Shown: positions 5,001-24,364 of the stretch, in pieces
How the letters are laid out: every line of letters starts with the position of its first letter
How positions within the stretch are numbered: position 1 is the stretch's first letter
NCBI GenBank assembly: GCA_016839705.1
Contig: JAEOTR010000041.1
Span: forward strand, 50,251 to 114,250
Length of the DNA stretch: 64,000 nt
Reading direction: 5' to 3'
Source of the DNA: Promethearchaeota archaeon
GTDB lineage: Archaea; Asgardarchaeota; Lokiarchaeia; Sigyniarchaeales; SOKP01
Position numbers and translations under genes: made by a program
The notes under the pieces: model-generated
Database searches by the model: none
What the model was told of the DNA's origin: nothing
The model's input: the letters and a program-made list of their open reading frames with translations, nothing else

Positions 5001-5690
5001 TTGATCTGCGGTATTGACGAGGCTGGTAGAATATAATCTATCTCGGATTATATACCAAAAGGCCCCGTAATTGGTCCTCTTGTGTTATGTGGAGTTTGCT
5101 ATAAAGAATCCAATTTATCCTATTTAGAGCGGATTGGCGTAAAAGACTCTAAAAAATTAACTGCCAAAAGGAGGAGAATTTTAGCTAAATTAATAAAGGA
5201 ATCGTGCCATTCATTTAAAATAATTGTCGTTCCTCCCCGAGAAATTGATGAAAGGGAAGAAAAAAGAATTACTCTGAATAAACTCGAGGAATTAAAAATG
5301 GCTGAAATTATTAGAGAATTAAAACCTGATACTATCTATATTGACGCAGTTGATGTAAATGAAGAAAGATTTACCCAATCAATCCTAGACCTCTTAAATT
5401 ATAGCCCAAAAGAAATTATTTCAAAACATAAAGCTGATGACCTATTCCCTATTGTATCTGCGGCTTCAATTATAGCAAAAGATAAAAGAGATGCATTAAT
5501 TGAGGAATTAAAGGAAAAATATGGAGATTTCGGCTCTGGATATCCCTCAGATTTAAGAACCACAGATTTTCTTCGGGAATATATAAAGAAAAAACAAAAA
5601 ATACCCCCCTACGCGAGAAAAACATGGGATACAATAAAGAAAATAGTGGATGAAGAATTAGGAAACAAAAAAATAACCGATTTTTTCTAA
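5001..5690 (+). CDS. rnhB: ribonuclease HII, two exons (5001-5029 and 5060-5690), 219 aa after splicing
   Basis: AAGGAGA SD, then TTG ATC TGC GGT ATT GAC GAG GCT GGT AGA (MICGIDEAGR), a 30-nt insert, then GGC CCC GTA ATT GGT CCT (GPVIGP). Downstream KDSKKL, SAASIIAK, GSGYPSD and C-terminal PIP-like KKITDFF. Confidence 0.93.
5030..5059 (+). other. 30-nt bulge-helix-bulge intron in rnhB mRNA
   Basis: Central helix TGGT(5024-27)/ACCA(5054-57), bulges AGA and AAA, inner stem ATATAATC/GATTATAT. Cutting after the 2nd nt of each bulge restores AGA GGC. In-frame TAA at 5034-36. Confidence 0.88.
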
Positions 5691-5692
5691 GT

Positions 5693-6385
5693 TTATCGTT
5701 TTTTCACTAATAAAACAATATGATTTGCTGCGTATTTATGAATGTTAATGCTTTCAATAATTTTATATCCCCTGTTTTCAAGAATTTTCTTTTCTTGGGC
5801 ATAGATATATTCAGATTTTTGGACACTATCAATAGATTGAGATTTGACTGCTAAAACTAATAATCCTTTCTCGTTTAGATAATAATTACTATTATCTATA
5901 GCTATTTCTGCTTGGTTAGGTTGAGAAACATCCTGATAAATTAAATCTATTTTTGAAAATATTGATTTTGCATATTCATCTGGATATCGAGCATCAGCAA
6001 AAATGGGAATAACATTTTTCCTTCGAGAGGTATTTTGTATTAACTGCCGAATGCTTCTTTCTGCAAATTCAACACCATAAATTATACCGTTCGTCAGTAT
6101 ATCAGAAAGATGAGAAATAGTAGTGCCAGAAGAAGCTCCTAAATATAAACAGCTTAAATCGTCGGATAGAAAATTATTAATTGGATTTTCCAATATTAGA
6201 GCTGCCAGTTTACTCCGAAATGGGTCCCATTCCCTATATTCATTTTCTTTATATTCGAGCAACCGTTCTCCATAAACTCTATTTCCTTTATCTCTGTTTC
6301 TTGTATAAAGTCTCAATTTTTCTTTGGATCCAGATGTGAAAACATTGCAAAATTTAGGATGATTTTTTATTTCAATTTGTGACAT
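5693..6385 (-). CDS. flpA: fibrillarin-like rRNA 2'-O-methyltransferase
   Basis: VYGERL, EYREWDPFRSKLAA, LYLGASSGTTISH, YQDVSQPNQ. Confidence 0.96.
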   Translation of the reverse strand: MSQIEIKNHPKFCNVFTSGSKEKLRLYTRNRDKGNRVYGERLLEYKENEYREWDPFRSKLAALILENPINNFLSDDLSCLYLGASSGTTISHLSDILTNGIIYGVEFAERSIRQLIQNTSRRKNVIPIFADARYPDEYAKSIFSKIDLIYQDVSQPNQAEIAIDNSNYYLNEKGLLVLAVKSQSIDSVQKSEYIYAQEKKILENRGYKIIESINIHKYAANHIVLLVKKR

Positions 6386-6396
6386 GCTTTATCACC

Positions 6397-7599
6397 TTAT
6401 CTTCTCTTTTTTGGCTTCTTTTTCTTTCCTTTAACAGGCTCTTCCTTTTTAGGTGGATTTGGATATTTAATTTCGATTTCGTTTATTTTAGATTCAATTT
6501 CTTTTGCTAGCTTATCTCCTATGAATTCACCGTTAAAATAATCGAGTTTAGCAGCAACTCCAATTTTCCCTGCGACTATTCGAGCAATTTTTCCACGATG
6601 ATATGATTTTGCTGACCTTATTTGATTCCATTGGAATATTAAACCATGTTTTGGGCGTTTCTCTCCCGTTTTGAGAAAACGATAAAGAGCTTTTTCAGCC
6701 CCTAACAATTGTATTCTTGATGCTGGCATAAAAGCCAGTTTTTTCATACTACCTGCTTTGGCGATAAGTTTAGCTCCGATTAATGCTCCGATAATAGCAT
6801 TTATGTTGGGGGCAATCTTTTCCATTATATCTGCTAGATTAATTTCTAAATCTTGTCTATACGAGTCTATAGAGATTATTTGATTTGCATAATCTTTAAC
6901 CATTCCTAAATCAAAATCCGCTCCCATTGAATCTGAAGCAAATTTCTGCAAAATTCGAATTTTTTTCTCTCCAAGTTCAAAATGTTTTATTAGATTTTCG
7001 TAAGTATATCTCTCCCTTGCTCCTAAAGTAGAAACCATTTTTGCTAAAAGAATGTTATCTTCAATAATCTTATCGGTTAATTCTGGAAAATATAAACCAT
7101 ACCATTCTCTGAGTTGACTTGAAAATAAACTTATAGATTTTTTAAGTATATCTAGAGTACCAATGATCTGAATAATTAAATTATCAGAATGACCACTTTC
7201 TTCTCTTACTTTTTTCTTGGTTAATTCCTCGTTGATTATTTTATATTGTGCGAGAATTTCATCTTTCCTTTTAATTATTCCTATGTTTTTTAATTGAGTT
7301 TCTAAATTGAGACGAAAATTTTTAAGTTCAAGTGAATCACTTTCTAAAAGTATACCATATCCTAATTGTTTTGTTAGTGTATGTAATTGTTTATTATCAA
7401 ATACAAACTCTTCAAATCCAGAATTCTTCAATTCAGATAAAAACTCTTTGTATTTACTCTGAATGATACCTTTATCAATATCAATATAGAATTGAATAAT
7501 TTTCTGGGTATCATTTTCAAAATCAATAAAATTCAAAATGGTTCCAGTTTCATCAAAAGCGAAAATCCCAACTAAAGTATCTGCTATATATGACTTCAT
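6397..7599 (-). CDS. nop5: C/D box snoRNP protein Nop5 (Nop56/58)
   Basis: LREWYGLYFPEL, PASRIQLLGAEKAL, PKHGLIF, RGKIAR, Lys-rich tail. Confidence 0.95.
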   Translation of the reverse strand: MKSYIADTLVGIFAFDETGTILNFIDFENDTQKIIQFYIDIDKGIIQSKYKEFLSELKNSGFEEFVFDNKQLHTLTKQLGYGILLESDSLELKNFRLNLETQLKNIGIIKRKDEILAQYKIINEELTKKKVREESGHSDNLIIQIIGTLDILKKSISLFSSQLREWYGLYFPELTDKIIEDNILLAKMVSTLGARERYTYENLIKHFELGEKKIRILQKFASDSMGADFDLGMVKDYANQIISIDSYRQDLEINLADIMEKIAPNINAIIGALIGAKLIAKAGSMKKLAFMPASRIQLLGAEKALYRFLKTGEKRPKHGLIFQWNQIRSAKSYHRGKIARIVAGKIGVAAKLDYFNGEFIGDKLAKEIESKINEIEIKYPNPPKKEEPVKGKKKKPKKRR

Positions 7600-7674
7600 T
7601 TTTATGAGAAAAACAGAGATATTTTTTCGTCATTAATAATTATTATAAAATTATAATCATTATTTTCTTAAAAA

Positions 7675-8601
7675 ATGCTTGAAATAAATCTCTCTGGGTT
7701 AAAGCTAAAATCTCCTCTTATTTTAGCTTCTGGAATTCTAGGTGTATCCTATTCTTCAATGAAGAGAATATTCAATGCCGGGGCTGGGGCAGTAACTTCT
7801 AAATCGATTGGACCTAGAGCAAGAAAAGGTTATAAAAACCCTTCTATCTTAGAGATTTATCCCGGTACTTTTATAAATGCTGTTGGTCTTGGAAATCCTG
7901 GAATTGATAATTTCTTATCTGAAATTAAAGAAATAAAAGAAAATAAAATCCCCCTTATAGTTAGTGTGTTTGGAGATACAAACCAATCATATTTAAATGT
8001 TGCTACTAAAGCAGAACAGGCAGGTGCCGATGCTATTGAGATTAATATATCTTGTCCACACGCAGAGGTATCATCGATAGGAATAGACAAAGATCTAACT
8101 TATTCCCTAGTTAAAACTCTAAAAGAAAAATTAGAAGTCCCGCTTTTTGTTAAGTTAAACCCTAACGTTACAAGTATAGGGGAAATAGCTTTAGCAGCGG
8201 AAAAGGGTGGTGCTGATGGAGTCGTTGCGATAAATACTCTAAGTGCTATGGTAATTGATATAAACACTAAAAGACCAATATTAGCTCATGGAAGTGGGGG
8301 TCTATCTGGAAGGGCGATTCATCCAATTGCCATTAAAAAAGTATATGATCTTTATCAATTATTAAAAATTCCAATTATTGGATGCGGAGGCATCTCTACT
8401 TGGAAAGAAGTAGTCGAATTTATATTGGCGGGTGCTTCTGCTGTTCAAATTGGGACTGCACTTTATAGGGGTGTCGAGATCATTACTGAAATTAATAATT
8501 CCTTACTCAATTTTCTAAAGATTAACGGATATAAATCTATATCTGAATTAATTGGATTATCACATGAATTTAAAACTCAGGAGGTACCTGATTTTGACTG
8601 A
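7675..8601 (+). CDS. pyrD: dihydroorotate dehydrogenase family 1B, catalytic subunit
   Basis: LASG, NAVGLGNPG, EINISCPH, VKLNPN, GGLSG. Confidence 0.93.
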   Translation: MLEINLSGLKLKSPLILASGILGVSYSSMKRIFNAGAGAVTSKSIGPRARKGYKNPSILEIYPGTFINAVGLGNPGIDNFLSEIKEIKENKIPLIVSVFGDTNQSYLNVATKAEQAGADAIEINISCPHAEVSSIGIDKDLTYSLVKTLKEKLEVPLFVKLNPNVTSIGEIALAAEKGGADGVVAINTLSAMVIDINTKRPILAHGSGGLSGRAIHPIAIKKVYDLYQLLKIPIIGCGGISTWKEVVEFILAGASAVQIGTALYRGVEIITEINNSLLNFLKINGYKSISELIGLSHEFKTQEVPDFD

Positions 8602-9442
8602 AAACATAATAAGAACAGTCATTATAACAAAATCAACAGATGAATGTAAAGACATTAAAACATTATCATTCAATATGAAAGAGGAGAACACAAACTACAT
8701 TCCACCAAAACCTGGGCAATTTGTTATGATTTGGGTTCCTGGTGTTGATGAAATCCCTATGTCTATATCTGATTGTGATATAAATGGAAATTGGAGTATT
8801 ACAGTAAAAAATATTGGTGAATGTACCAATGCGATTTATAACCTAAAAGAGGGTGATTTTATTGGCGTCAGAGGACCTTTAGGTAATTGGTTTGAACTTC
8901 CGGAAGAAAAATCTAAAAACATATTTTTAATCGGGGGAGGAATAGGTATGGCTCCTCTTCGTTTTCTTACCCAAGAGTTGTATAAACATAAATTTTCCTT
9001 TATTCTAATTCAAGGTGCAAAAATCAAAAGCGAATTAATGTTTACAACTCAATTTCAAATGTTAGACAAGAATTCTACCGATATTTTTTATTGTACTGAA
9101 GATGGGAGTTATGGAACCGAAGGCATTGTAACTCTAGCTTTTGAAAGAATTTTGGAAACTTACTCAAAAAGGCTACATTCAAATGCAATAACTTATACTT
9201 GTGGTCCTGAAAAAATGATATATTCTATCTACGAAATATGTGAGAAATGGAATATAGAACTTCATGCTAGTCTGGAGCGAATAATGAGATGTGGGTGTGG
9301 GCTGTGTGGATTGTGTGCAATCGATCCTTTAGGTTTATTAGTTTGTAAAGACGGACCTGTATTTAAGACTGAATCCTTAAAGAAGATGGAAGATTTTGGA
9401 AAATATAAAAGAGATTTTACCGGTAGGAAAGTAAAATTGTAA
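8594..9442 (+). CDS. pyrK: dihydroorotate dehydrogenase electron transfer subunit
   Basis: PGQFVMIW, RGPLG, GGGIGMAP, CGPEKM, MRCGCGLCGLC...CKDGPVF. Start placed at TTG 8594 after GGAGG. Confidence 0.92.
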   Translation: MTENIIRTVIITKSTDECKDIKTLSFNMKEENTNYIPPKPGQFVMIWVPGVDEIPMSISDCDINGNWSITVKNIGECTNAIYNLKEGDFIGVRGPLGNWFELPEEKSKNIFLIGGGIGMAPLRFLTQELYKHKFSFILIQGAKIKSELMFTTQFQMLDKNSTDIFYCTEDGSYGTEGIVTLAFERILETYSKRLHSNAITYTCGPEKMIYSIYEICEKWNIELHASLERIMRCGCGLCGLCAIDPLGLLVCKDGPVFKTESLKKMEDFGKYKRDFTGRKVKL

Positions 9443-9473
9443 AAACCTAATTATTTTTTGAATATCACTTGAC

Positions 9474-11105
9474 ATGGCTTCTGAAAAAACTGAATTTCCT
9501 GAAAAAATTGAAAAAATCTCTAGGGAAATAATCAAATTCCTAATTCAGAATCCACAGACTTCTCGGAAAAGAATTACTAATATAAAAGGTAAAATAGGAA
9601 AAAAATTCAACTTTAAAAAAGTTATTAAGAATGCTACAATCTTAGATTATGCTACTCCAGATGAGAAAGAAATTATTCTTCCAATCCTGAAAAGGAGATC
9701 TACTAGAACCTTATCAGGTGTCTCTGTTATAGCTATAATGACGAAACCACTTCCATGTCCAGGAACATGCATTTACTGTCCCGGACAGAATTCACAACCC
9801 GGTGAAAAGGTAGCCCAATCTTACACTGGTCGAGAACCCGCAGCCATGAGATCTATCCATAATAATTATGACCCTTATCAACAAGTACAGAGCAGAATCA
9901 GAGATTTGGAGGTCATCGGTCATACTGTAGACAAAATTGAGCTTATTTGTATGGGAGGTACCTTTTTATCTACAGATCTCAATTATCAACAAGAATTCAT
10001 TAAGGGTGCTCTTGAAGGGATTATTGAACAGAGAGTTAAGAGCTTAGAGGAAGCTAAAAAGCTTGCTGAAACTTCTAAAAGAAGAGTTATAGGAATTACT
10101 GTTGAAACTAGACCAGATTATTGTAAAGAGGAACATGTAGACAGAATGCTTAAATATGGAACAACTCGAGTTGAACTTGGCATACAAACAGTCTATGATG
10201 ATGTTTATGATTTGGTTAAAAGAGGTCATACCTCTATTGATAGCATTGAAGCAATTAGAATTGCTAAAGATGCGGGTTTAAAAATAAATGCTCATATAAT
10301 GCCCAATCTGCCTGGTTCTGATTATTCTAAAGATTTAGAATTATTTGATACATTATTTTCTAACTCCAATTATCGGCCAGATATGCTAAAGATTTATCCA
10401 ACTTTAGTAATACATGGGACAGAATTGTATAATTGGTGGAAAGAAGGCAAATATTCTCCTTACTTAGATGAAGAATTAATAGATTTAATCGCAAAGGTTA
10501 AAACTAATCTTCCACCTTATGTTAGGATTCAAAGAATTATGAGAGATATTCCCGCAACTTTAATTGAAGCTGGTTGCAAAAACAGCAATTTAAGGCAAAT
10601 AGTGCAAGAAAGATTAAGAGAAATAGAAGATACATGTAAATGTATAAGATGTAGGGAGTATGGGATCAGGAAGAAAAAGGAAATTATCGATGAGCGCTCT
10701 CTCGACGAAATTAAATTATATCGACTAGATTATGAAGCATCCGAAGGACAAGAAATTTTCTTGTCTTACGAGAATCAGAAAGAAGGATATTTGGTAGGTT
10801 ATTTACGCTTACGACAACCCTCTGAATCTGCTCATAGACCTGAATTAAATGATGGAAGGACCTTGATCGTAAGGGAAATTAAAGTTGTTGGCGAATTAGT
10901 ACCAAGGGATATGAAGCCAAATCGATTTTCTCAAATCCAGCATCGAGGATTTGGAAAGATGTTAATGCAAAATGCTGAGAAAATCTCATTCGAAGAATTC
11001 AATGCAAAAAAATTAGCCGTGATTAGCGGTATAGGTGCTAGAGATTGGTTCTATGAAATGGGATATAATTTAGATGGGGTATATGTTTCTAAATCTTTTG
11101 AATAA
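9474..11105 (+). CDS. elp3: tRNA uridine(34) acetyltransferase Elp3 (radical SAM plus KAT)
   Basis: CPGTCIYCPG, QSYTGREP, ETRPD, LKIYPT, QHRGFG. Confidence 0.95.
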   Translation: MASEKTEFPEKIEKISREIIKFLIQNPQTSRKRITNIKGKIGKKFNFKKVIKNATILDYATPDEKEIILPILKRRSTRTLSGVSVIAIMTKPLPCPGTCIYCPGQNSQPGEKVAQSYTGREPAAMRSIHNNYDPYQQVQSRIRDLEVIGHTVDKIELICMGGTFLSTDLNYQQEFIKGALEGIIEQRVKSLEEAKKLAETSKRRVIGITVETRPDYCKEEHVDRMLKYGTTRVELGIQTVYDDVYDLVKRGHTSIDSIEAIRIAKDAGLKINAHIMPNLPGSDYSKDLELFDTLFSNSNYRPDMLKIYPTLVIHGTELYNWWKEGKYSPYLDEELIDLIAKVKTNLPPYVRIQRIMRDIPATLIEAGCKNSNLRQIVQERLREIEDTCKCIRCREYGIRKKKEIIDERSLDEIKLYRLDYEASEGQEIFLSYENQKEGYLVGYLRLRQPSESAHRPELNDGRTLIVREIKVVGELVPRDMKPNRFSQIQHRGFGKMLMQNAEKISFEEFNAKKLAVISGIGARDWFYEMGYNLDGVYVSKSFE

Positions 11106-11252
11106 TTAAGATTTCTAAATTCCTAGAGTATTGAATAGTCTGAACTTGAAAAGTTATTAACTTACATTTAAAAAATTATGTTTTTTTATAAGTTAATATA
11201 CAAAAAGTTACATTATATTTTTGTGTCTAAAAAATAGGGTTATGGGTAAAAA

Positions 11253-12323
11253 ATGACATCAACAACAAAAAAAACTTCTCAACAAACAATTTCGATAAGT
11301 CCTAAACTTAAAGAACGAATTGAAAAATATGTCACGGCAAACCAACAGAAATTTCCAAAAGATAATAGGTTTAAAAGTATTTCTGCTTTTTATACCAGCG
11401 TGATGGAAAAGGTATTGGATAGTTTTGAAAAAGGTAAAACTCTTGATGATTTTGAAAGCTTTGTGGATAGTGATATTAAAGATTTTTTCGAGAAAATCTC
11501 CTTTAATGGGCTTATTCCGTATTACGAGGATGCAATTATAGCCAATAGATACCAAACTACTACTCTTGAAAGAAATCCTTTTTTCTACTTCACACTGAGA
11601 AGGTTCTATACATCAAGAATGGACCCCTATGATATTAAGAGCATACAATCCGTGTTCGATAGAGTTAGAAATTATATTCTTTCAAATAATCTTACTAAAG
11701 AATTCAGGTTAGATATTTTCTCTGGAAAAGGTGAAAAAAATCTAACGGCGGTTTTTGAACAAGCAGGTTTACATCAAAATTTATGTTTTGAGAATTTCAA
11801 ATTTTCGGCAGCACTTTTCGGCTTATTAGGCGCAAAAATTACTAATTATCTATATTCCAGAAAAAATAATTATTGTAGATTTGATCTAAAAACTACAGAT
11901 TTATTTTATCGAAAAGAGCTTTTAAAAAGAGAAAGGATCAAGCTAATGGAAGATAACTTATCCCATTTTATAAATTATAATAGAATAGTAGAAGATAAAG
12001 ACTTTTTCCTATGGATGAAGATAGCGAGAGATAAGAATGCTTTCATATCGTTTACTAATGATGAAACTAAACAAGAATGGGTAAACTTAATAGAAAGCGA
12101 AATTGAACAATTTGGGGATGAAGATGATTATCATCTTAATATACTAAGGCTTTTTCAGAGACTTCATTGGATCGAAATTGAAAATGAGAAAGAATTGTTA
12201 TTCCGAATTATACTACCCACATCTACAGACCAAAGTAATATCGATTATTTATTAGAAACCCTTTCAAAAAAGGTAGAAATTATAATAAACAATGGTAAAT
12301 ATCAATTAAAAAAAAGGAAATGA
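11253..12323 (+). CDS. hypothetical protein with N-terminal ribbon-helix-helix-like region; paralog of 12663
   Basis: QQTISISPKLKERIEKYV...FKSISAFY; collinear similarity with the next gene. Confidence 0.75.
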   Translation: MTSTTKKTSQQTISISPKLKERIEKYVTANQQKFPKDNRFKSISAFYTSVMEKVLDSFEKGKTLDDFESFVDSDIKDFFEKISFNGLIPYYEDAIIANRYQTTTLERNPFFYFTLRRFYTSRMDPYDIKSIQSVFDRVRNYILSNNLTKEFRLDIFSGKGEKNLTAVFEQAGLHQNLCFENFKFSAALFGLLGAKITNYLYSRKNNYCRFDLKTTDLFYRKELLKRERIKLMEDNLSHFINYNRIVEDKDFFLWMKIARDKNAFISFTNDETKQEWVNLIESEIEQFGDEDDYHLNILRLFQRLHWIEIENEKELLFRIILPTSTDQSNIDYLLETLSKKVEIIINNGKYQLKKRK

Positions 12324-12662
12324 AAGGCTAAAAAGATTAGATCTCATCCCTCAATTATCCTGTTTTGTTAATACCTGGTTTTTGCCTTTATGTCCTTAAA
12401 GATTCCCGTCTTTCCCCTTGATTTTATTGTCTAAATATAATTCATGACTATGAATATTTAAAGTAATATATTAGTCATTAAAAACATGAAATTTTAAAAA
12501 TGTACACTAAAAAAAGATTTTTAAAGAAAATTAGAATAGAAACATAATATTGGATAATATGTATTTTGTAAAGTAAATAATATTAAAGAAAATTTATATT
12601 TAGCTTATGTGAATTAAAAACATGGTAGATTTTATCTACTAAATATTTAATAATTAAGTAAA

Positions 12663-13751: not shown

Positions 13752-13880
13752 AATTTATTTATAGGTAACTTAAATTAGGATAAAATAGATCTGTATTTCC
13801 ACTTAACATTATACCCCAAACTTTTTTTAAAAATGATTATATCTAAAATTCTTGAGAAATTACTTTTTATGTGATTTATT

Positions 13881-15794: not shown

Positions 15795-15799
15795 AATGA

Positions 15800-17158: not shown

Positions 17159-17289
17159 AATCTCTTCTCTTAATAGATACAACAGTAAAACCTTTATTCA
17201 TATCCTTTACATCACTTCTTAGCGAAAATGATAAAAAATTTATAGTTAAAATAATTTAAAATTATATCCACAAAATATCGTGAAGTTTT

Positions 17290-18012
17290 ATGGGAAAACG
17301 AATACTTGCTCAGCGAAAAGGTCGAGGATCTTTACCATTTCGATCACCCTCACATCGCCATATAGGTGCTGTAAAATATCGTCCATTTTTAGAAGGACAA
17401 AATGAATTCACATTTAAAGTAATTGAATTACTGCACTCTCCTGGTAGAGGTGCGCCTGTGGCATTAATAAAATACAATGATGATAAAAAATCTCTATGGC
17501 TTCCTCCCGAAGGTATTTTTGAAGGTGAAGAATTCATCCAATCTAATTCCCAAACTGAGATTAAAGTAGGGAATATCTTACCCTTAAAAGATATACCACT
17601 TGGAACTTTAGTATTTAATGTTGAATCAGCTCCTCAAGATGGAGGAAAATTCGCGAGATCCTCTGGAGTTTCGGCAATTGTAAGAAATAGAACCGGAAAT
17701 AAAGTAGAACTTCTATTCCGTTCGAAAAGAACAAAATGGATCCATGAAAAATGCTTAGCAACTATCGGTGTGGTCGCTGGTGGAGGTCGTACAGATAAAC
17801 CTTTCCTTAAAGCGGGGAACAAGTATCATTACAATAAATCCAAAGCAAAGAAATGGCCCGTCGTTCGCGGTGTTGCTATGAATGCTGTATCTCATCCTTA
17901 TGGAGGCGGCGCAAAACAAAGTCCACATAAATCAACCACAACTTCAAGAAATAGACCTCCTGGACGTAAAGTAGGACAAATTGCGGCTAGGAGAACAGGA
18001 CATCAAAATTAA
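17290..18012 (+). CDS. rpl2: 50S ribosomal protein uL2
   Basis: MGKRILAQRKGRG, VRGVAMNAVSHPYGGG, PPGRKVGQIAARRTG. Confidence 0.97.
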   Translation: MGKRILAQRKGRGSLPFRSPSHRHIGAVKYRPFLEGQNEFTFKVIELLHSPGRGAPVALIKYNDDKKSLWLPPEGIFEGEEFIQSNSQTEIKVGNILPLKDIPLGTLVFNVESAPQDGGKFARSSGVSAIVRNRTGNKVELLFRSKRTKWIHEKCLATIGVVAGGGRTDKPFLKAGNKYHYNKSKAKKWPVVRGVAMNAVSHPYGGGAKQSPHKSTTTSRNRPPGRKVGQIAARRTGHQN

Positions 18013-18179
18013 AATCTCTATTCTAAATTTAATACAACAATCTATTGAAGCTTTAATTCATTTTAGTGCGAAAAATAGAGCATCTAAGATCTTATAAAGC
18101 TAAATCTAAAAGTTATTTAAAAATTAGAAAATATTACTTTTTAGCCCTAATCTTATTTAAAAAAAGAATAACAGAATAA

Positions 18180-19070
18180 TTAGTTTGCATTAAAATTGAA
18201 ACTAATATGTTGTAAAAACTCCTTATATCTTGAGCGAAGTGTTACTTCTGTCACCCCGATAACTCTTGAAATGTCCTTCTGGCTTATTTTTTGGTTTTTT
18301 AGCTTGGAAATCAAATAAATCGATCCTGCACACAAACCTTTTGGATCCTTGCCGCAAATTGATGTATTTGCTATGAAGTTCTTTAAAACTTTAATTGCCT
18401 CCTTCTCTATCTGAATATCAAGCCCTAAATCTGCACAATACCTTGGAATTAACGCAACCGGATCGATATGTGGTGATTTTAAGTTGAGCTCACGTACTAA
18501 AATTTTATAGCACTTCTTCACAATGTTATCATTAATCGATGCCTCGTCTAATATCTCCTGCAAGGTTATTGGAACTCTCTCCTGCTTGCATACATAATAC
18601 GCGCACGCTGCAATCATCCCATTAATAGACCTTCCCCGTAAAAGGTTTTTCTTAAATACCTCTTTATAAAGACGGACTGCTGCCTTCTTCACACGCTCAG
18701 GAAAATTTAAATTGCCACCAATTCTCTTTAACTCAGTTATGGCTATAAGCATATTTCTTTTTTCCCATGATAAATGCGTGTTCCATTTAGCTGCCCTCCT
18801 TAAATCAGGATTCTTGATCATCTTCCTATCAATGATAGTACTCAACCCAATATCCGGCATTAAAATAGAAATAGGACAGCCTGTCCGTTCTTTTTTATCC
18901 TTCTCCGACTTTGAATAGGCTCTTATACCACTATGAGAAATATCTACTTCTTTCTCACCTACAACTAAACCACACTGCTGACACACTGTCTCCCCTCTCT
19001 GGTGGATAGAGATTGTACCCCCGCCACATTCCGGACAAAAATTCGATTGTGGAATTACCTCAACGACCAT
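18180..19070 (-). CDS. tfb: transcription initiation factor IIB paralog
   Basis: Zn ribbon CPEC...CQQCG, two cyclin repeats (RGRS, GKDP, VTEVTLRSRYKE). Confidence 0.93.
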   Translation of the reverse strand: MVVEVIPQSNFCPECGGGTISIHQRGETVCQQCGLVVGEKEVDISHSGIRAYSKSEKDKKERTGCPISILMPDIGLSTIIDRKMIKNPDLRRAAKWNTHLSWEKRNMLIAITELKRIGGNLNFPERVKKAAVRLYKEVFKKNLLRGRSINGMIAACAYYVCKQERVPITLQEILDEASINDNIVKKCYKILVRELNLKSPHIDPVALIPRYCADLGLDIQIEKEAIKVLKNFIANTSICGKDPKGLCAGSIYLISKLKNQKISQKDISRVIGVTEVTLRSRYKEFLQHISFNFNAN

Positions 19071-19881
19071 GTCTTTTTACCTTTTCCCAAATCTTATGTT
19101 TAATTTGTATTTTTGTTAATTTTTTACACACACTTTCAATGAAAAATCCTTTTGTACTCATAAAGGTGTAAAAAGTTATTCTTTGTTATAACAATAGATC
19201 CCTAATTCATATATAAATCTTTTCGTTATAAAAATTCCTTTATATATGCAAATTTTTCAAAATTTTTGTTCAAATTTGTTATAATATTTATATGGGTTAT
19301 AATGTAAAAAAGTATGAAATATCTTTTATTGAAATGACATAATATCAGCATAATACATATTTTGGGTAAAAATCCATAATAAGAAAGAATTGAAGTACGA
19401 TTTGGGGGTACAAATGAGGTATAGCTAATTTTTTATTACAAAAATGTAAAAGAGAGAGTTATTTTTCGGATACAATTAACGACAAAAAACGACGTAAATC
19501 AAATATTCCGCAATTTTGACAAAAATATGGTTTGTGGTAAAAAAATATAAATACGAATTTTTTGTGAAAATTTGTAATCAATGGAAGTTAAACCAGTTTA
19601 GATCTTTATATAATCAATTTATTTTTTATATCATCCTTATAACAGCACAATTGATATTAGAAAATACATGAATCAAAGATATTATGAGAAAATCGATTTA
19701 AACATAATTTCGCATTGAAATCCACATTCTTATACATTACATCTAAAAAAAATTTAGTTAACTATTATTTTTATCCATAATGACATCTCGCAAATATTAT
19801 CTAATAAAAAAACATTAAATACAAGTTCTTTTATTAAGTTTTCAACAAAAACTAACACATTCATTTAGTGGTCAAAAAACT

Positions 19882-20832
19882 TTGAAGCCAGAGGAGCCAG
19901 AGAACCCATCTGATAAAATTATTGGTAATCCAGATGACATGGATTTAATTAAAATTGATTATAATTCCTTTGAGAAGACGGAAGATATGAAAAGATATGA
20001 GGATGAAACTGGCAAATACTCGGTATGGCGGGGCATTGTAACGGAAGGATTTAAAAAGTGGCAACGAGGAGAAAAAATCTATCATCGAGAAAAAGAACGA
20101 ATTTCACTCTATGTTTCCGATGAAACCAAAGCAAAATGGATAGAATATACCAAAAGTGATGGCACTACCATTTCGAAGTTGATAAGGGAAGCGGTTGAGT
20201 CATTTATTGAAAATCAAGAGAATCATAGTAATCATAATTTATCGATGTTCGATCCTCAAACGATTTCCACTATTTCTCATACATTAAAAGAACCGTTAAC
20301 TTCAATTAAAGGTTATTCGCAATTGCTTATTGAAAATTACCGAGAAAAATTGAATGATCAAGTTTTAGAGACGGTAAAAAATATATTTGAGCAGAGTATT
20401 CTTCTCGAAAAGAAAATTATTAACATATTAGATAATATTAAAGTAGAACCTGAGCATGAAGTTTTACTAATTGAAGATGACCTTGCAACTATTCGACTTA
20501 TTAAAAACTATTTTGAAAGTAAAGGCTATAAATGTAAAGGAGTTGTTAGTGGTTCGAAAGGATTGGAAGAATTAGGAAATGCTATTCCAAAACTGATATT
20601 ATTAGATATAATTTTACCAGATTTGAGTGGATACGATATCTGTATAAATATAAAATCTGATAATGAATATAAAAATATCCCTGTTTTTTTCTTAACTGCT
20701 ATAGCGGGTTCTGAAGTACAGAAAAACTTAGAGGAAACTAAAGCCGATGGGTATATCTTAAAACCTTTTAATTTTTCTGACTTCGAAGTTATCTTCGATA
20801 TTTTAAAAAAGAAGAGAAAAAAAGAAAAATAA
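19882..20832 (+). CDS. RHH-HisKA-receiver regulator
   Basis: ERISLYVSDETK...TISKLIREAV (RHH), ISHTLKEPLTSIKG (H-box), LLIEDD/LILLDIILP/LTA/KPF (REC). Confidence 0.85.
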   Translation: MKPEEPENPSDKIIGNPDDMDLIKIDYNSFEKTEDMKRYEDETGKYSVWRGIVTEGFKKWQRGEKIYHREKERISLYVSDETKAKWIEYTKSDGTTISKLIREAVESFIENQENHSNHNLSMFDPQTISTISHTLKEPLTSIKGYSQLLIENYREKLNDQVLETVKNIFEQSILLEKKIINILDNIKVEPEHEVLLIEDDLATIRLIKNYFESKGYKCKGVVSGSKGLEELGNAIPKLILLDIILPDLSGYDICINIKSDNEYKNIPVFFLTAIAGSEVQKNLEETKADGYILKPFNFSDFEVIFDILKKKRKKEK

Positions 20833-21234
20833 ATTTCTAGATATTTGAAGACTCATACTAAATTCTCGAATATTCACCATTTCACTAACATATATAGGCT
20901 ATTTTAGGGATAACACAATAATATAAATATTCTTGAGTAAGATATATAAAATGATAAAAAACTACACAATATTGTAAACAACTATTTAATGAACTGCAAA
21001 TTTTATAAAAAAAGGAATTATCTACAACAATGGTTATCAATTTTAAATAAATAGTATACAAAAATATTAATAACAGAAATTTTACCTAATTATATAGAAA
21101 TATTACTCAAAGAAGAAAGAGGGGGAAAGGATATTTCAAAAGAGAAAAAAAACTCCAATAACAATGATTCTAAAGATCTAGAAAATGATTATGAAAAATT
21201 AAGTTTCACCGATGAAGAAATAACGAACTTAAAG

Positions 21235-22095
21235 GTGGGGAGCAAACAATTTGAGGAGTTAAGGAAATTATACGAAGATCAGACTCATAAATACGCCGAA
21301 TGGCGTGGTACTATAACCGAAGGGTTTAAAAAGTGGTTAAAAGGAGAAAAAATCTATGACAGAGATAAAGAACGAATCTCTCTCTATGTATCAGAAGATA
21401 CTAAAACAAAATGGGAAGATTTTAAGGATTCAAATAAATATTCGACAATATCCGCATTAATCAGAGATAGTGTTGATTATTACATTGAACAAAAATCCGA
21501 TTTTTTAAGTGGAGGATTACAGGGGATGCCTGAAAAGACCATCTCCAACATATCTCATGCCTTAAAGGAGCCGTTGACAACTATAAAAGGCTTCAGTCAA
21601 CTTCTTCTGGAGAATTACAAAGATGAATTAGATTCTGAAGTATTATCGACAATAAAGAACATTTTTGATCAGTCTATGTTGCTTGAGAATAAAATTATTA
21701 ATATTCTTGATAACATTAAAACAGAAGACGTTGAACATCAGTATGATATCCTCCTGATTGAAGATGACCTTGTCACGATTAGGTTATTAACGAGTTACTT
21801 CGAAAGTAAGGGCATTAAATGTAAGGGAGTGGTTAGTGGTACCAAAGGTTTAGAGGAAATAAGAGGTGGTGCCCCCAAATTAATACTTTTAGACATAATT
21901 CTACCTGATATATCCGGATATGAAATCTGTAAAATGATAAAAGATCATAGTAAATATAAAGAAGTGCCTGTATTCTTGTTGACAGCTATTCCTGGTTCTG
22001 AAGTTGAAAAGAAAATTGCTGAAACGAAAGCAGATGGTTACATCTTAAAACCATTTGATTTTTCAGATTTCGAAATATTATTCCAATACATTTAG
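21235..22095 (+). CDS. RHH-HisKA-receiver regulator, tandem paralog (may start upstream at ATT 21133)
   Basis: Same architecture: ERISLYVSEDTK, ISHALKEPLTTIKG, IEDD...LLDIILPD...KPF. Confidence 0.85.
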   Translation: MGSKQFEELRKLYEDQTHKYAEWRGTITEGFKKWLKGEKIYDRDKERISLYVSEDTKTKWEDFKDSNKYSTISALIRDSVDYYIEQKSDFLSGGLQGMPEKTISNISHALKEPLTTIKGFSQLLLENYKDELDSEVLSTIKNIFDQSMLLENKIINILDNIKTEDVEHQYDILLIEDDLVTIRLLTSYFESKGIKCKGVVSGTKGLEEIRGGAPKLILLDIILPDISGYEICKMIKDHSKYKEVPVFLLTAIPGSEVEKKIAETKADGYILKPFDFSDFEILFQYI

Positions 22096-22115
22096 GATCC
22101 CAAGTTAAAACTTTT

Positions 22116-22559
22116 TTATTTAATTGACCCTAAATAAACATAGGTTTTTTTCTGTCGGTTTTTTTTAAGAATCTTATAACGGGTATATCCATCCAACAAT
22201 TCCATTCCATTATTATTAACTATTAAAGGTTCGATGGAACTCCCTCGTAATACCGATTCTTCCATCTCTTCAGCCCTCAAAGTTAATTCTTCTAAAAAAT
22301 TATAACCATCTTTTTGATAATTCATTAAGTTAGATCTAAGTTTAATATCATCCAAATTTATGATTACTAATTTAAATTTCATATTGGGTACGAGATTTAA
22401 CCATTCAGTAGTCCATGTTTGGTCGGGAAATTCCTCATGATCACGTTGCCATTCTTTTCCAATCCATTTTAACAAAAATGGCTTCAAATTGTTTTTGTTT
22501 TTTACTAAGTAATATGTGAAGTTGCCGAGTTTTTTATATATAAATATCTTTCTCATCAA
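22116..22559 (-). CDS. ParB/sulfiredoxin-like domain protein
   Basis: GSSIEPLIV...ELLDGYTRY resembles the ParB-N motif. Confidence 0.65.
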   Translation of the reverse strand: MMRKIFIYKKLGNFTYYLVKNKNNLKPFLLKWIGKEWQRDHEEFPDQTWTTEWLNLVPNMKFKLVIINLDDIKLRSNLMNYQKDGYNFLEELTLRAEEMEESVLRGSSIEPLIVNNNGMELLDGYTRYKILKKNRQKKTYVYLGSIK

Positions 22560-22569
22560 GGAATAATAA

Positions 22570-22643
22570 CGGGCTATGAGGGAATCGAACCCCCGACCGT
22601 CAGGTTAAGAGCCTGCTGCGCTACCTGCCTGCGCTAATAGCCC
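22570..22643 (-). tRNA. tRNA-Lys(CTT), no intron
   Basis: GGGCTAT/ATAGCCC acceptor, GCGC D-stem, CT-CTT-AA loop, GGTTCGATTCC T-arm. Confidence 0.93.
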
Positions 22644-22666
22644 AAATAATATGTCCAATGAAAATG

Positions 22667-22768
22667 CGCAGATGGAGGGACTCGAACCCCCGAGCGCTCC
22701 CGCGCACTGGCTTGCTTGAATGCATTAGATACTCAAGGCCAGCGTCTTACCAGCTAGGCTACATCTGC
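22667..22768 (-). tRNA. tRNA-Ser(TGA) with 19-nt canonical 37/38 intron (22713-22731)
   Basis: GCAGATG/CATCTGC acceptor, G73, long variable arm, CTGGC/GCCAG anticodon stem, central BHB helix CTTG/CAAG with CAA bulge. Confidence 0.88.
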
Positions 22769-22945
22769 TGATTTAAAATTATTTTGTATTTTTATTTTAA
22801 AATATTGTAGTTCTATTAAAATAGATTATATACAGCAAAATAAATGTTTTTTCATTTTTTTCTTTATATCTTTAGAGCTCTCCCGTCGTTTTAAGAAAAA
22901 TATAAATTTTATGATACATTGAATCCTACTTGAGATGATAAAAAT

Positions 22946-23434
22946 ATGAGTGGATCAAAAGATTTTCGTTATCTGATACCTGAAAGTTTATTTCAAGAAA
23001 TTACCCAAAAGAGCGCAGAAGAGCATCCTATGATTTGTCACGGGTGGCTCTTTGCAGAGCGTAAAGAAAACTTCGGTATTTGCACTAAATTTATTATGAA
23101 TACAGATTTACGTAAGACTAAAGCTCACGTTAAGCCAAGAAGCTGGATGAGATATAAAAAATCAAAGATTTATAATATGCGGAAATTTAAAGAGGAGCTT
23201 GGTGTGGACATTGTGTGGCAATGGCACTCTCATCCTAGTGGTAATGAGAAGCTACACGCTATTGACAAGAGGATATTGAAGTATTTATCAAACGGGGTTA
23301 TGATAATCGTGATCCCATCAGTTCCAGGGAAAGAACCAGAACAAAAAGCACATCTGGTTGGGTGGTACTATGACAAACGGTATACCAAAAAGCCAATCAT
23401 AGAAAAAATGGTTTTTGAAATAATTTCCGAATAA
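22946..23434 (+). CDS. JAB/MPN (JAMM-like) domain protein
   Basis: WQWHSHPSGNEKLHAID, similar to HSHP-x7-SxxD. Confidence 0.75.
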   Translation: MSGSKDFRYLIPESLFQEITQKSAEEHPMICHGWLFAERKENFGICTKFIMNTDLRKTKAHVKPRSWMRYKKSKIYNMRKFKEELGVDIVWQWHSHPSGNEKLHAIDKRILKYLSNGVMIIVIPSVPGKEPEQKAHLVGWYYDKRYTKKPIIEKMVFEIISE

Positions 23435-23555
23435 ACAATATTCTTTTTCTTTTATTTTTTTTGATAAGATGCATGAAATCATATTTTATAATAAAATATT
23501 AAAATTTTAAATCGTTATATATACTTACAACTCTACGCTCGGGAAATTAAACGAA

Positions 23556-23697
23556 GCTCAGATCATCAATCCTTTAGATTGCTGAAAGAAAGTCGCTTAG
23601 CCTGGTAGAGCGCTGGATTGCTAATCCAGTGTCCATCGGATACGTGGGTTCGAAAAGAAACGCATTTCGCATATTCTTGAAATTCCCACCCTGAGCG
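23556..23697 (+). tRNA. tRNA-Ser(GCT) with two non-canonical introns: about 6/7 (23562-23591) and 59/60 (23655-23683); alternative 5' end at 23537
   Basis: CTGGA-TT-GCT-AA-TCCAG anticodon arm, long variable arm, GTGGG/CCCAC T-stem, 3' CCTGAGC-G. GCTCAG plus GTC gives a perfect acceptor stem. T-loop intron has BHB TTCG/TGAA with AAA and ATT bulges. Confidence 0.8.
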
Positions 23698-23898
23698 CTT
23701 AAATATTTCGATATATTCAAATCTTCAAGATCAATTTGAAAAATCATCTAACCTTCTTTCTTTACGTTTAATAGAATTTGTTAAAAGATCATAAAATAAA
23801 TTATACTTTTGTGGTAATTTTATGCCTAAATTTTGGAAAAACTCAGTAGCAAATAAGTCCGACATCAAACGATATTCTAAATAAAAATAACTCAAAGG

Positions 23899-24135
23899 AT
23901 GTGGACAAACAAAATTACTGGTAAAACGTCAATTTCATATAAAACTGCTGTTGCATCAAAAAGTCAGATTTCAAAATTCCTTTCTATAGTGAAGCCCAAA
24001 AAGTGGCAATTTAATTGGGAAAGAATAGGTCATAGACTGAAATTAGTCGGTTCAAATTTTAAAGAAGCACTCAAATATAATAAAGAGAAAACCCTAAGCA
24101 ATTTTGCTAAAGATGCCTTAAAGGACTTAGAATAG
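23899..24135 (+). pseudogene. possible C-terminal remnant of a LAGLIDADG-like or other protein
   Basis: Short ORF between tRNAs; ASKSQISKFLSIVKP only loosely resembles the end of a LAGLIDADG domain; no LAGLIDADG motif present. Confidence 0.25.
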
Positions 24136-24228
24136 TTATATATCATCTAAATTCTATATTTAAAAAAATATTAAAATATTGAATGATTATATTATTTCTC
24201 TGTGTATTGAGTATATGAGTGTTAACAT

Positions 24229-24364
24229 GGGCCAGTGGTCTAGCGGTTATAACAGTAGTTAATTTCTAAAATGTAACAAAGACGTCTCGCTTACACCGAG
24301 AAGGTCGGGAGTTCAAAAAGAAATAATAATTCATTATTTCTTGAGAACCTCTCCTGGCCCACCA
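24229..24364 (+). tRNA. tRNA-Val(TAC) with encoded CCA and two 30-nt non-canonical introns: 22/23 (24251-24280) and 59/60 (24318-24347)
   Basis: GGGCCAG/CTGGCCC-ACCA, TCTCG-CT-TAC-AC-CGAGA. Intron 1: GTT/AAC helix, ATA and AAG bulges, ACA/TGT. Intron 2: TTCA/TGAG, AAA and AAC bulges, AGAAATAAT/ATTATTTCT. Confidence 0.9.

What the first reader, a model, noticed from the sequence alone, without database searches (positions are those of the whole stretch)
5030..24347. A shared 29-30 nt intron size class across tRNA and mRNA suggests an intron-spreading system
Seen: five non-canonical introns measure 30 nt (rnhB), 30 and 29 nt (tRNA-Ser GCT) and 30 and 30 nt (tRNA-Val). All are AT-rich, start with A, mostly end in AA and can form a hairpin, while the canonical 37/38 intron in Ser(TGA) is 19 nt. 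Inference: a lineage-specific process inserts uniform mini-introns at many RNA sites, including mRNAs, so other apparently broken genes in this genome may be spliced. A 30-nt intron without a stop codon would keep the frame and be invisible to ORF calling. Speculative: because RNase HII processes RNA:DNA hybrids and embedded ribonucleotides, an intron in rnhB could couple splicing capacity to intron gain.
Basis: inference. Interest (0 to 1): 0.85.

Follow-up and report, generated by a model that had tools for sequence, protein, structure and literature searches.

The report
30-base tRNA-type introns, including in rnhB
An Asgard archaeon carries short hairpin introns of about 30 bases, of the kind normally cut out of tRNAs, both in its tRNA genes and inside protein genes such as RNase HII. 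This suggests its messenger RNAs are routinely spliced by the tRNA-splicing enzymes, but I found no sign that the introns are copied from a common source.

Summary
All five inserts are at the stated places, and removing them restores an intact RNase HII active-site motif and two good tRNA cloverleaves.

- **rnhB insert (5030-5059):** it is a canonical bulge-helix-bulge (BHB) intron. It sits at the same codon in 42 distinct relatives' sequences, is exactly 30 nt in 40 of them, always carries an in-frame stop, and shows strong compensatory base-pair changes.
- **Size class:** in my partial census of this genome, 15 of 27 tRNA introns are 29-31 nt. I also confirmed introns in EF-2 (30 nt) and IscU (27 nt), and partly in mevalonate kinase (31 nt).
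- **Turnover:** tRNA introns come and go between species of the genus, whereas the rnhB intron is old.
- **Copying:** 30 introns are no more alike than shuffled sequences.
- **Hidden introns:** stop-free in-frame inserts show no excess at 30 nt.
- **Insertion machinery:** I searched only for the splicing enzymes. The ordinary EndA and RtcB genes are present.

My reading is ordinary archaeal splicing applied unusually widely. The common length is most likely set by hairpin stability in an AT-rich genome, not by a spreading element. The proposed link to RNase HII function is unsupported.

No RNA data were available. Earlier notes of this scan report further mRNA introns on other pieces of this genome.

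The parts
5001..5029 (+). rnhB exon 1: TTG start, LICGIDEAG, and the first two bases of the Arg codon.
   Evidence: The amino acids are conserved across relatives while the codons vary synonymously.
5030..5059 (+). rnhB BHB intron, 30 nt, with an in-frame TAA. Central helix: 5024-5027 (TGGT) pairs with 5054-5057 (ACCA). Bulges: 5028-5030 and 5058-5060. Inner hairpin: 5031-5038 pairs with 5046-5053, loop 5039-5045.
   Evidence: Sequence read directly and MFE fold. On 39 distinct of 40 aligned sequences, 91.2% of cells are paired against 24-46% for slid controls, and 9 of 17 pairs show compensatory change.
5060..5690 (+). rnhB exon 2 (RNase HII, GPVIGP... to the TAA stop).
   Evidence: Pfam PF01351, E = 1.9e-41, profile positions 9-198 of 199.
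22667..22768 (-). tRNA-Ser(TGA) with a canonical 37/38 BHB intron of 19 nt at 22713-22731.
   Evidence: Rfam tRNA, 44.3 bits, with a 22-nt stretch of sequence where the model has 3 positions in the anticodon loop. Boundaries read.
23556..23697 (+). tRNA-Ser(GCT) in three exons: 23556-23561, 23592-23654, 23684-23697.
   Evidence: The spliced cloverleaf scores 30.1 of 30.5. Intron-less orthologues in 11 congeners have the same exon sequences.
23562..23591 (+). Ser(GCT) intron 1, 30 nt, between positions 6 and 7. The motif is relaxed: a TCAG/CTGA helix and a 5-bp hairpin, but the bulges are not 3 nt.
   Evidence: Also present in G005 (30 nt) and G010 (34 nt) and not seen in 11 other congeners.
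23655..23683 (+). Ser(GCT) intron 2, 29 nt, T-loop 59/60. Canonical hBHBh': the T-stem is the outer helix, TTCG pairs with TGAA, the bulges are AAA and ATT, and AGAA pairs with TTCT.
   Evidence: Read. Found as a strict BHB candidate by my scanner. A homologous 29-nt intron is present in G010 only.
24229..24364 (+). tRNA-Val(TAC) in three exons, with an encoded CCA at 24362-24364.
   Evidence: Spliced cloverleaf 30.1 of 30.5. Ten congeners have an intron-less orthologue.
24251..24280 (+). Val(TAC) D-arm intron, 30 nt by comparison with orthologues (28-29 nt by other criteria). The motif is relaxed: GTTA pairs with TAAC and the inner helix is weak.
24318..24347 (+). Val(TAC) T-loop intron, 30 nt, position 59/60. 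Canonical hBHBh': TTCA pairs with TGAG, the bulges are AAA and AAC, and the inner hairpin has 9 bp.
   Evidence: Congeners G017 and G001 have 30-nt introns of different sequence at the same position. G016 also has one there, but the locus ends inside it, so its length is unknown.

Best explanation
The five inserts are ordinary archaeal bulge-helix-bulge introns.

**Mechanism.** After transcription, the exon next to the insert pairs with the insert's 3' part to form a 4-bp helix flanked by two 3-nt bulges. The tRNA-splicing endonuclease EndA cuts in both bulges, and the RNA ligase RtcB joins the exons. For rnhB this removes a stop codon and rebuilds the catalytic GIDEAGRGP motif, so RNase HII can be made only from spliced mRNA.

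**What is unusual.** This Asgard lineage applies the tRNA machinery to many sites:
- non-canonical tRNA positions;
- several protein-coding genes (rnhB, EF-2, IscU, probably mevalonate kinase).

**Why about 30 nt.** An intron is 1 + hairpin + 4 + 2 nt. I infer that in a genome of 32% GC an AU-rich inner hairpin needs about 8-9 bp plus a loop (about 23 nt) to be stable enough. The shared length is then a constraint on what can be spliced and retained, not a mark of common descent or of a dedicated inserting element.

**Shown and inferred.**
- *Shown:* the anatomy, conservation, covariation, restored products, and presence of EndA and RtcB.
- *Inferred:* the cutting and joining themselves, and the reason for the length.
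For: **rnhB structure and product**
- It has the canonical BHB layout at 5024-5060.
- 42 distinct sequences carry an insert at exactly the Arg codon, and 40 of them are exactly 30 nt.
- 91.2% of cells pair, against 24-46% in slid controls. Nine of 17 pairs change on both sides, and 0 of 500 shuffles reach this.
- Synonymous sites of the exon codons GCN GGN covary with the intron strand of the central helix: TGGT with ACCA, AGGG with CCCT, CGGG with CCCG.
- All 40 introns of 30 nt carry an in-frame stop.
- Intron-less homologues read straight through ...DEAGRGP....

**tRNAs**
- Spliced cloverleaves score 30.1 of 30.5.
- Intron-less orthologues match the exons.

**Machinery**
- One EndA gene, C56:35901-36491, matches both Pfam domains. 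Its best solved relatives are the chains of entries 3p1z, 3ajv, 2cv8 and 2zyz.
- RtcB is at C25:19832-21139.

**Length as a constraint**
- The rnhB intron stays at 30 nt although its sequence is almost wholly replaced in L046, L049, L054 and L059.
- Val T-loop introns of two other species are also 30 nt with different sequences.
- The one GC-rich example, a Bathyarchaeia rnhB intron at the same codon, has a 6-bp GC-rich hairpin and is only 26 nt.
- Other Asgard classes are reported to have a median of 22-23 nt (preprint 10.64898/2026.10.13.758758).

**No common source**
- Pairwise similarity of 30 introns equals that of shuffles: mean score 5.59 against 5.65 +/- 0.07, and maximum 11 against 9-15.
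Against: - No RNA data could be obtained, so splicing itself has not been observed.
- Two of the four non-canonical tRNA introns in the window (Ser 6/7 and Val D-arm) do not fit the strict motif. They need an enzyme with relaxed specificity.
- Only one EndA gene was found. The second subunit expected for the broad-specificity heterotetramer was not detected in this 93%-complete genome.
- The stability argument for the 30-nt mode is an inference from a few cases, not a test.
- Canonical 37/38 introns in the Ser tRNAs of the same genome are only 18-22 nt. AT-richness alone therefore does not force 30 nt everywhere.
- My tRNA census is partial (32 genes). It has boundary errors of 1-2 nt and at least one mis-solved gene.
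Confidence: 0.65

Rival explanations
1. An active, lineage-specific process creates or inserts mini-introns of a fixed size of about 30 nt at many RNA-coding sites, in tRNA and mRNA alike. One route would be reversal of the cutting and joining reaction followed by reverse transcription and recombination.
For: - Orthologous tRNA loci differ between species of one genus. The Ser(GCT) 6/7 intron is in 3 of 14 genomes and its T-loop intron in 2 of 14. The Val(TAC) T-loop intron is in 4 of 15, and other Val positions are occupied in G011 and G016.
- Those inserts whose length could be read are 29-34 nt.
- A separate gain at the very same rnhB codon in a Bathyarchaeia genome suggests that sites able to form the motif are hit repeatedly.
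Against: - Introns are no more similar to each other than shuffles. This agrees with the preprint's negative tests for copying, mobile elements and reverse transcription in other Asgard.
- The rnhB intron is old and vertically inherited, with a few losses.
- Presence and absence among species can equally be explained by loss.
- I did not search this genome for a reverse transcriptase or any other inserting enzyme.
Confidence: 0.2
2. The rnhB intron is a regulatory device. RNase HII output is tuned by how well the mRNA is spliced, or splicing capacity is coupled to genome-maintenance functions.
For: - The intron sits in the first 30 bases of the gene.
- It always carries a stop, so unspliced mRNA yields no enzyme.
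- It has been kept for a long time in most of the clade.
Against: - Several members of the clade lost it precisely without other visible change (L040, L042, L048, L050, L060-L064).
- Unrelated genes (EF-2, IscU, mevalonate kinase) carry similar introns. This argues for neutral retention, not for a function specific to rnhB.
- Nothing here links it to intron gain.
Confidence: 0.08
3. The inserts are not spliced. rnhB would be a pseudogene or an assembly artefact, would start downstream, or would be read by ribosomal bypass. The tRNA genes would be decayed copies.
For: No RNA evidence is available. One congener (L020) has a 29-nt insert that would shift the frame if cut in the same way.
Against: - The insert is found in 42 distinct sequences from independent assemblies.
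- Exon 1 shows purifying selection, with conserved amino acids and synonymous changes.
- Covariation fits the BHB fold.
- A start downstream would remove the catalytic Asp of the DEAG motif.
- rnhB matched a single place in this genome.
- My incomplete tRNA census found no second Ser(GCT) or Val(TAC) gene.
Confidence: 0.03

Closest known systems
BHB intron in the cbf5 pre-mRNA of Desulfurococcales and Sulfolobales (Watanabe 2002; Yokobori 2009, PMC2738675)
   Same: - A short BHB intron lies inside a coding sequence.
- It is presumably removed by the tRNA endonuclease and ligase.
- It is present in one clade, with precise secondary losses in some members.
   Different: - Different gene (RNase HII) and different phylum (Asgard).
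- Here it is one of several interrupted protein genes in one genome.
- As of 2020 the literature I could read counted cbf5 as the only intron inside an archaeal coding sequence (PMC7714728).
Multiple non-canonical tRNA introns and 'intron transposition' in Thermoproteales (Sugahara 2008; Fujishima 2010, as summarised in the preprint read)
   Same: - Many tRNA genes carry two or more introns at non-canonical positions such as 59/60 and the D-arm.
- The motifs are relaxed.
- The closest solved EndA chains are, from my own knowledge, crenarchaeal catalytic subunits.
   Different: Thermoproteales introns fall into sequence families shared between tRNAs. Here 30 introns show no similarity above shuffles.
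[quoted passage not shown]
   Same: - Same superphylum.
- Frequent non-canonical and multiple introns.
- Repeated gains.
- No evidence of copying between genes.
   Different: - Those studies concern the Atabey- and Freyr-type classes, report a median of 22-23 nt, and do not treat mRNAs.
- Here the lineage is Loki-type, the mode is 29-31 nt, and protein genes are included.
BHB element in the 5' UTR of Haloferax volcanii HVO_1309 mRNA (Schwarz 2020, PMC7714728)
   Same: An mRNA is processed by the tRNA-splicing endonuclease.
   Different: That element lies in the untranslated leader, not in the reading frame.

Membership tests
Archaeal bulge-helix-bulge (EndA-type) intron | Two 3-nt bulges on opposite strands separated by a 4-bp helix, with the cuts after the second base of each bulge | tested here: met
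   Met for rnhB (5024-5060), the Ser(GCT) T-loop intron, the Val(TAC) T-loop intron and the Ser(TGA) 37/38 intron. The Ser 6/7 and Val D-arm introns fit only relaxed forms.
Archaeal bulge-helix-bulge (EndA-type) intron | The helices are supported by compensatory changes in relatives | tested here: met
   rnhB: 91.2% of cells paired, 9 of 17 pairs with changes on both sides, 0 of 500 shuffles as high, slid controls 24-46%. Not tested for the tRNA introns.
Archaeal bulge-helix-bulge (EndA-type) intron | Removal restores a functional product | tested here: met
   GIDEAGR|GPV is restored. Cloverleaves score 30.1 of 30.5 and match intron-less orthologues.
Archaeal bulge-helix-bulge (EndA-type) intron | The host encodes the splicing endonuclease and the RtcB ligase | tested here: met
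   EndA at C56:35901-36491 and RtcB at C25:19832-21139. A second EndA subunit was not found with these queries.
Archaeal bulge-helix-bulge (EndA-type) intron | The spliced RNA and the excised (often circular) intron are observed | not testable with these tools
   No RNA run was listed for this DNA.
Transposing intron families (Thermoproteales type) | Introns at different sites share sequence beyond what the motif demands | tested here: not met
   For 30 introns, the mean local score is 5.59 against 5.65 +/- 0.07 in shuffles, and the best score is 11 against 9-15.
Self-splicing or mobile introns (group I, group II) | A ribozyme core of hundreds of bases, often with an encoded protein | tested here: not met
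   The inserts are 19-30 nt. Rfam reports only tRNA matches above its thresholds in the window.
cbf5-type intron in an archaeal protein gene | A BHB intron inside a reading frame, clade-restricted, with precise losses | tested here: met
   41 of 49 rows of one Asgard RNase HII clade carry it. Eight rows inside that clade lack it precisely. At least 2 changes are forced by well-supported branches and 5 is the fewest changes of the label on the quick tree.

The most novel reading that the evidence does not exclude
This Loki-type Asgard lineage still gains new introns of about 30 nt in both tRNA and protein genes. The process leaves no sequence trace of a donor. Interrupted genes and obligatory mRNA splicing by the tRNA endonuclease and RtcB are therefore a normal and growing part of its gene structure. 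This would be a prokaryotic exon-intron organisation in the closest relatives of eukaryotes, independent of the spliceosome.
Probability: 0.2. Interest if true: 0.9.

Novelty: new variant of a known kind. Interest (0 to 1): 0.72.

Why it matters
- **Rarity in print.** Splicing of protein-coding mRNA by the tRNA machinery is documented for essentially one archaeal gene, cbf5. Here an enzyme of DNA maintenance, a translation factor and an iron-sulfur scaffold protein all appear to depend on it, in the archaeal group closest to eukaryotes.
- **Annotation.** Gene callers will truncate or split such genes. In this window rnhB is called without its catalytic N-terminus.
- **Biology.** An essential part of the proteome would depend on EndA and RtcB.
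- **A testable question.** It becomes possible to ask what sets intron size, and how such introns arise without a recognisable donor.

Tried and rejected
- **tRNA finders.** ARAGORN with and without its intron option, and Rfam, find only a third of the expected tRNAs and misplace introns.
- **Raw BHB motif count.** Over the whole genome it is flat in length, at about 115 per length. The motif alone cannot reveal a size class.
- **ORF-fusion scans.** Filtering by BHB quality, flank GC or codon usage left the scans dominated by junctions between neighbouring genes.
- **False mRNA candidates.** Two good-looking candidates were shown by Pfam to be gene junctions: C37:26563-26592 and C87:16915-16941.
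- **Free-deletion search with ARAGORN.** It is too permissive until re-scored with a strict cloverleaf. At least one gene (C25:5785) is still mis-solved.
- **Hidden introns.** Stop-free in-frame inserts show no excess at 30 nt: 748 at 30 nt against 726 at 27 nt and 681 at 33 nt. This crude test could miss a handful.
- **Second EndA subunit.** Not found with PF01974, PF02778 or the alpha protein as query.
- **Lost script.** A genome-wide blastn for extra copies of each intron was in a script that returned no answer. It was not repeated.
- **Tree.** The careful tree search did not finish, so the quick tree was used.
Full report
**Source of the window.** The window is G000:C25:50251-114250 of a 3.36-Mb assembly of 97 contigs, 93% complete, with about 32% GC. 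The closest public records of its RNase HII gene are metagenome-assembled genomes labelled Promethearchaeota or Promethearchaeia, that is, Loki-type Asgard archaea.

**Checking the observation**

*rnhB.*
- The gene starts with TTG at 5001 behind a GGAG motif. It reads LICGIDEAGR and then hits TAA inside a 30-nt stretch at 5030-5059.
- From 5061 the frame continues GPVIGPLV... and matches Pfam RNase_HII from profile position 9 to the end (E = 1.9e-41).
- Removing 5030-5059 joins AG to A and gives GIDEAGR|GPV, the motif that intron-less homologues encode without interruption.

*tRNAs.*
- Standard finders see only tRNA-Lys and an intron-bearing tRNA-Ser(TGA) in the window.
- Removing candidate inserts and re-scoring with a strict cloverleaf recovered two more genes. 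tRNA-Ser(GCT) spans 23556-23697 with inserts of 30 nt (6/7) and 29 nt (59/60). tRNA-Val(TAC) spans 24229-24361 with a D-arm insert and a 30-nt insert at 59/60. Both score 30.1 of a possible 30.5.
- The Val D-arm insert is 30 nt (24251-24280) if the mature tRNA is to equal its intron-less orthologues. Other criteria give 28-29 nt.
- The canonical intron of Ser(TGA) is 19 nt.

**Anatomy**

*rnhB.* The layout is textbook:
- exon bases TGGT (5024-5027) pair with intron bases ACCA (5054-5057);
- the bulges are AG|A and AA|A;
- the inner hairpin has 8 bp (5031-5038 with 5046-5053).

*T-loop introns.* Both use the T-stem as the outer helix and four T-loop bases as the exon half of the central helix. 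They are the exact counterpart of the 37/38 position in the anticodon arm.

*Ser 6/7 and Val D-arm introns.* These fit only relaxed forms of the motif.

**Is the rnhB intron real?** I collected the gene from 40 related genomes and from a scan of public genomes.
- 42 distinct sequences carry an insert at exactly this codon. Forty are exactly 30 nt, one is 29 nt (L020) and one, from a Bathyarchaeia genome (L090), is 26 nt.
- All 40 introns of 30 nt contain an in-frame stop.
- On an alignment of 40 sequences (A1) my BHB structure pairs 91.2% of cells, against 24-46% when the partners are slid. Nine of 17 pairs have changes on both sides, and none of 500 shuffles reaches the observed values.
- Most telling, the synonymous third positions of the exon codons GCN GGN change together with the intron strand of the central helix (TGGT/ACCA, AGGG/CCCT, CGGG/CCCG).
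- Exon 1 keeps its amino acids through synonymous changes, so it is translated.
- A pseudogene, an artefact or a downstream start is therefore very unlikely.

**Age of the rnhB intron.** A quick maximum-likelihood tree of 80 RNase HII proteins has modest support at many forks.
- It puts 41 intron-bearing rows in one Asgard clade of 49.
- Eight members of that clade lack the intron precisely.
- The Bathyarchaeia case sits apart, among intron-less Bathyarchaeia.
- This is the pattern described for cbf5: one old gain, some precise losses, and here a second gain at the same codon elsewhere.

**Is there a size class?**

*tRNA introns.* My census resolved 32 tRNA genes of this genome with 27 introns. 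It is incomplete, boundaries are good to 1-2 nt, and at least one gene is mis-solved.

| Length (nt) | Number of introns |
|---|---|
| 18 | 2 |
| 22 | 2 |
| 24 | 1 |
| 26 | 1 |
| 27 | 2 |
| 29 | 5 |
| 30 | 7 |
| 31 | 3 |
| 37 | 3 |
| 40 | 1 |

More than half (15 of 27) lie in 29-31 nt. The canonical Ser introns are the short ones.

*mRNA introns.*
- My scan for BHB candidates that mend broken frames was noisy. It did turn up EF-2 (C82:11187-11216, 30 nt), IscU (C85:74326-74352, 27 nt) and mevalonate kinase (C29:8703-8733, 31 nt).
- Pfam confirmed EF-2 and IscU: the two exons match adjacent parts of one domain (GTP_EFTU 3-35 and 49-187; NifU_N 2-30 and 32-125).
- For mevalonate kinase only the second exon could be matched.
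- Earlier notes of this scan list further mRNA introns of 29-32 nt on other pieces of this genome. I used them as leads only.

**Is there a spreading system?**

*For ongoing turnover.* At the orthologous Ser(GCT)-Val(TAC) locus of 13-14 congeners, most species have no intron at all.
- The Ser 6/7 intron is in G000, G005 and G010 (30, 30 and 34 nt).
- The Ser T-loop intron is in G000 and G010 (29 nt, clearly homologous).
- The Val T-loop intron is in four genomes. It is 30 nt with unlike sequences in the three where its length can be read.
- G011 and G016 carry introns at yet other Val positions.

*Against copying.*
- Thirty introns (26 tRNA, 4 mRNA) are no more alike than shuffles. This agrees with a recent preprint on other Asgard classes.
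- The rnhB intron is ancient. It held 30 nt while its sequence was almost entirely replaced in some lineages.
- The GC-rich Bathyarchaeia version, with a 6-bp GC hairpin, is shorter at 26 nt.
- Other Asgard classes are reported with medians of 22-23 nt.

*My inference.* The length is maintained by what can be folded and cut. It equals 7 nt of fixed motif plus a hairpin that must be long when it is AU-rich. It is not inherited from a donor. This is an inference from few cases. The short canonical Ser introns show it is not the whole story.

**Other predictions**
- Stop-free in-frame inserts with a BHB shape inside good ORFs show no excess at 30 nt.
- The rnhB introns always keep a stop. Introns 'invisible to ORF calling' therefore seem rare, although this crude test would miss a few.
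- Nothing bears on a functional link between RNase HII and intron gain.

**Machinery**
- One EndA gene (197 aa, both Pfam domains) lies at C56:35901-36491.
- Its best solved relatives are the chains of 3p1z, 3ajv, 2cv8 and 2zyz. From my own knowledge these are crenarchaeal enzymes of the heterotetrameric, broad-specificity kind.
- A partner subunit was not found.
- RtcB lies on the same contig as the window.

**Limits.** No RNA run was listed, so cutting and joining remain inferred.

**Verdict.**
- These are real tRNA-type introns with a lineage-typical length of 29-31 nt, in tRNAs and in several protein genes.
- There is turnover in tRNAs, and the rnhB intron is old.
- There is no evidence for a copying element or for the RNase HII coupling.
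- The rnhB intron is a new example of the cbf5 kind. The breadth of mRNA targets in an Asgard genome is the notable part.

Noticed in passing
L090 (CAYWPD010000039.1, Bathyarchaeia), about 239-318: A Bathyarchaeia rnhB has a GC-rich 26-nt BHB insert at exactly the same Arg codon. Its 6-bp hairpin is AGACTC/GAGTCT and its central helix is CGGG/CCCG. Its closest relatives on the tree lack it, which suggests an independent gain at the same site.
   Followed up: partly
window 23698-24228: In most congeners tRNA-Ser(GCT) and tRNA-Val(TAC) lie only about 8-20 nt apart. In this genome about 530 nt, including a 78-aa ORF (23899-24135), separate them.
   Followed up: no
L106 (G011) and L108 (G016), Val(TAC) orthologues: These congeners carry inserts at other positions of the same tRNA (D-arm and anticodon stem). 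Intron positions therefore differ between species at a single locus.
   Followed up: no
L020 (G023), rnhB intron: This is the only congener whose insert is 29 nt (one base missing in the 3' half of the hairpin). If cut like the others it would shift the frame. It may be an assembly error, a shifted cut or a dying gene.
   Followed up: no
window 5030-5038 and the same columns of alignment A1: Nearly all rnhB introns read AGA AT(A/T) TAA in frame, so a TAA stop sits at the same place right behind the splice site. Stops inside these introns may be selected to stop translation of unspliced mRNA.
   Followed up: partly
L005-L023, position aligned to window 5001-5003: In many congeners the codon aligned with the TTG start of rnhB is TTA or CTA, with no ATG, GTG or TTG nearby in frame. 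The start of exon 1 in those species is unclear.
   Followed up: no
window 24362-24364: tRNA-Val(TAC) has its CCA end encoded in the gene.
   Followed up: no
G000:C16:22950-23079 and G000:C87:137426-137555: Two identical SeC-like tRNA regions were each solved with the same 37-nt insert. The C87 one lies at the very end of its contig, so this may be assembly redundancy, not two genes.
   Followed up: no
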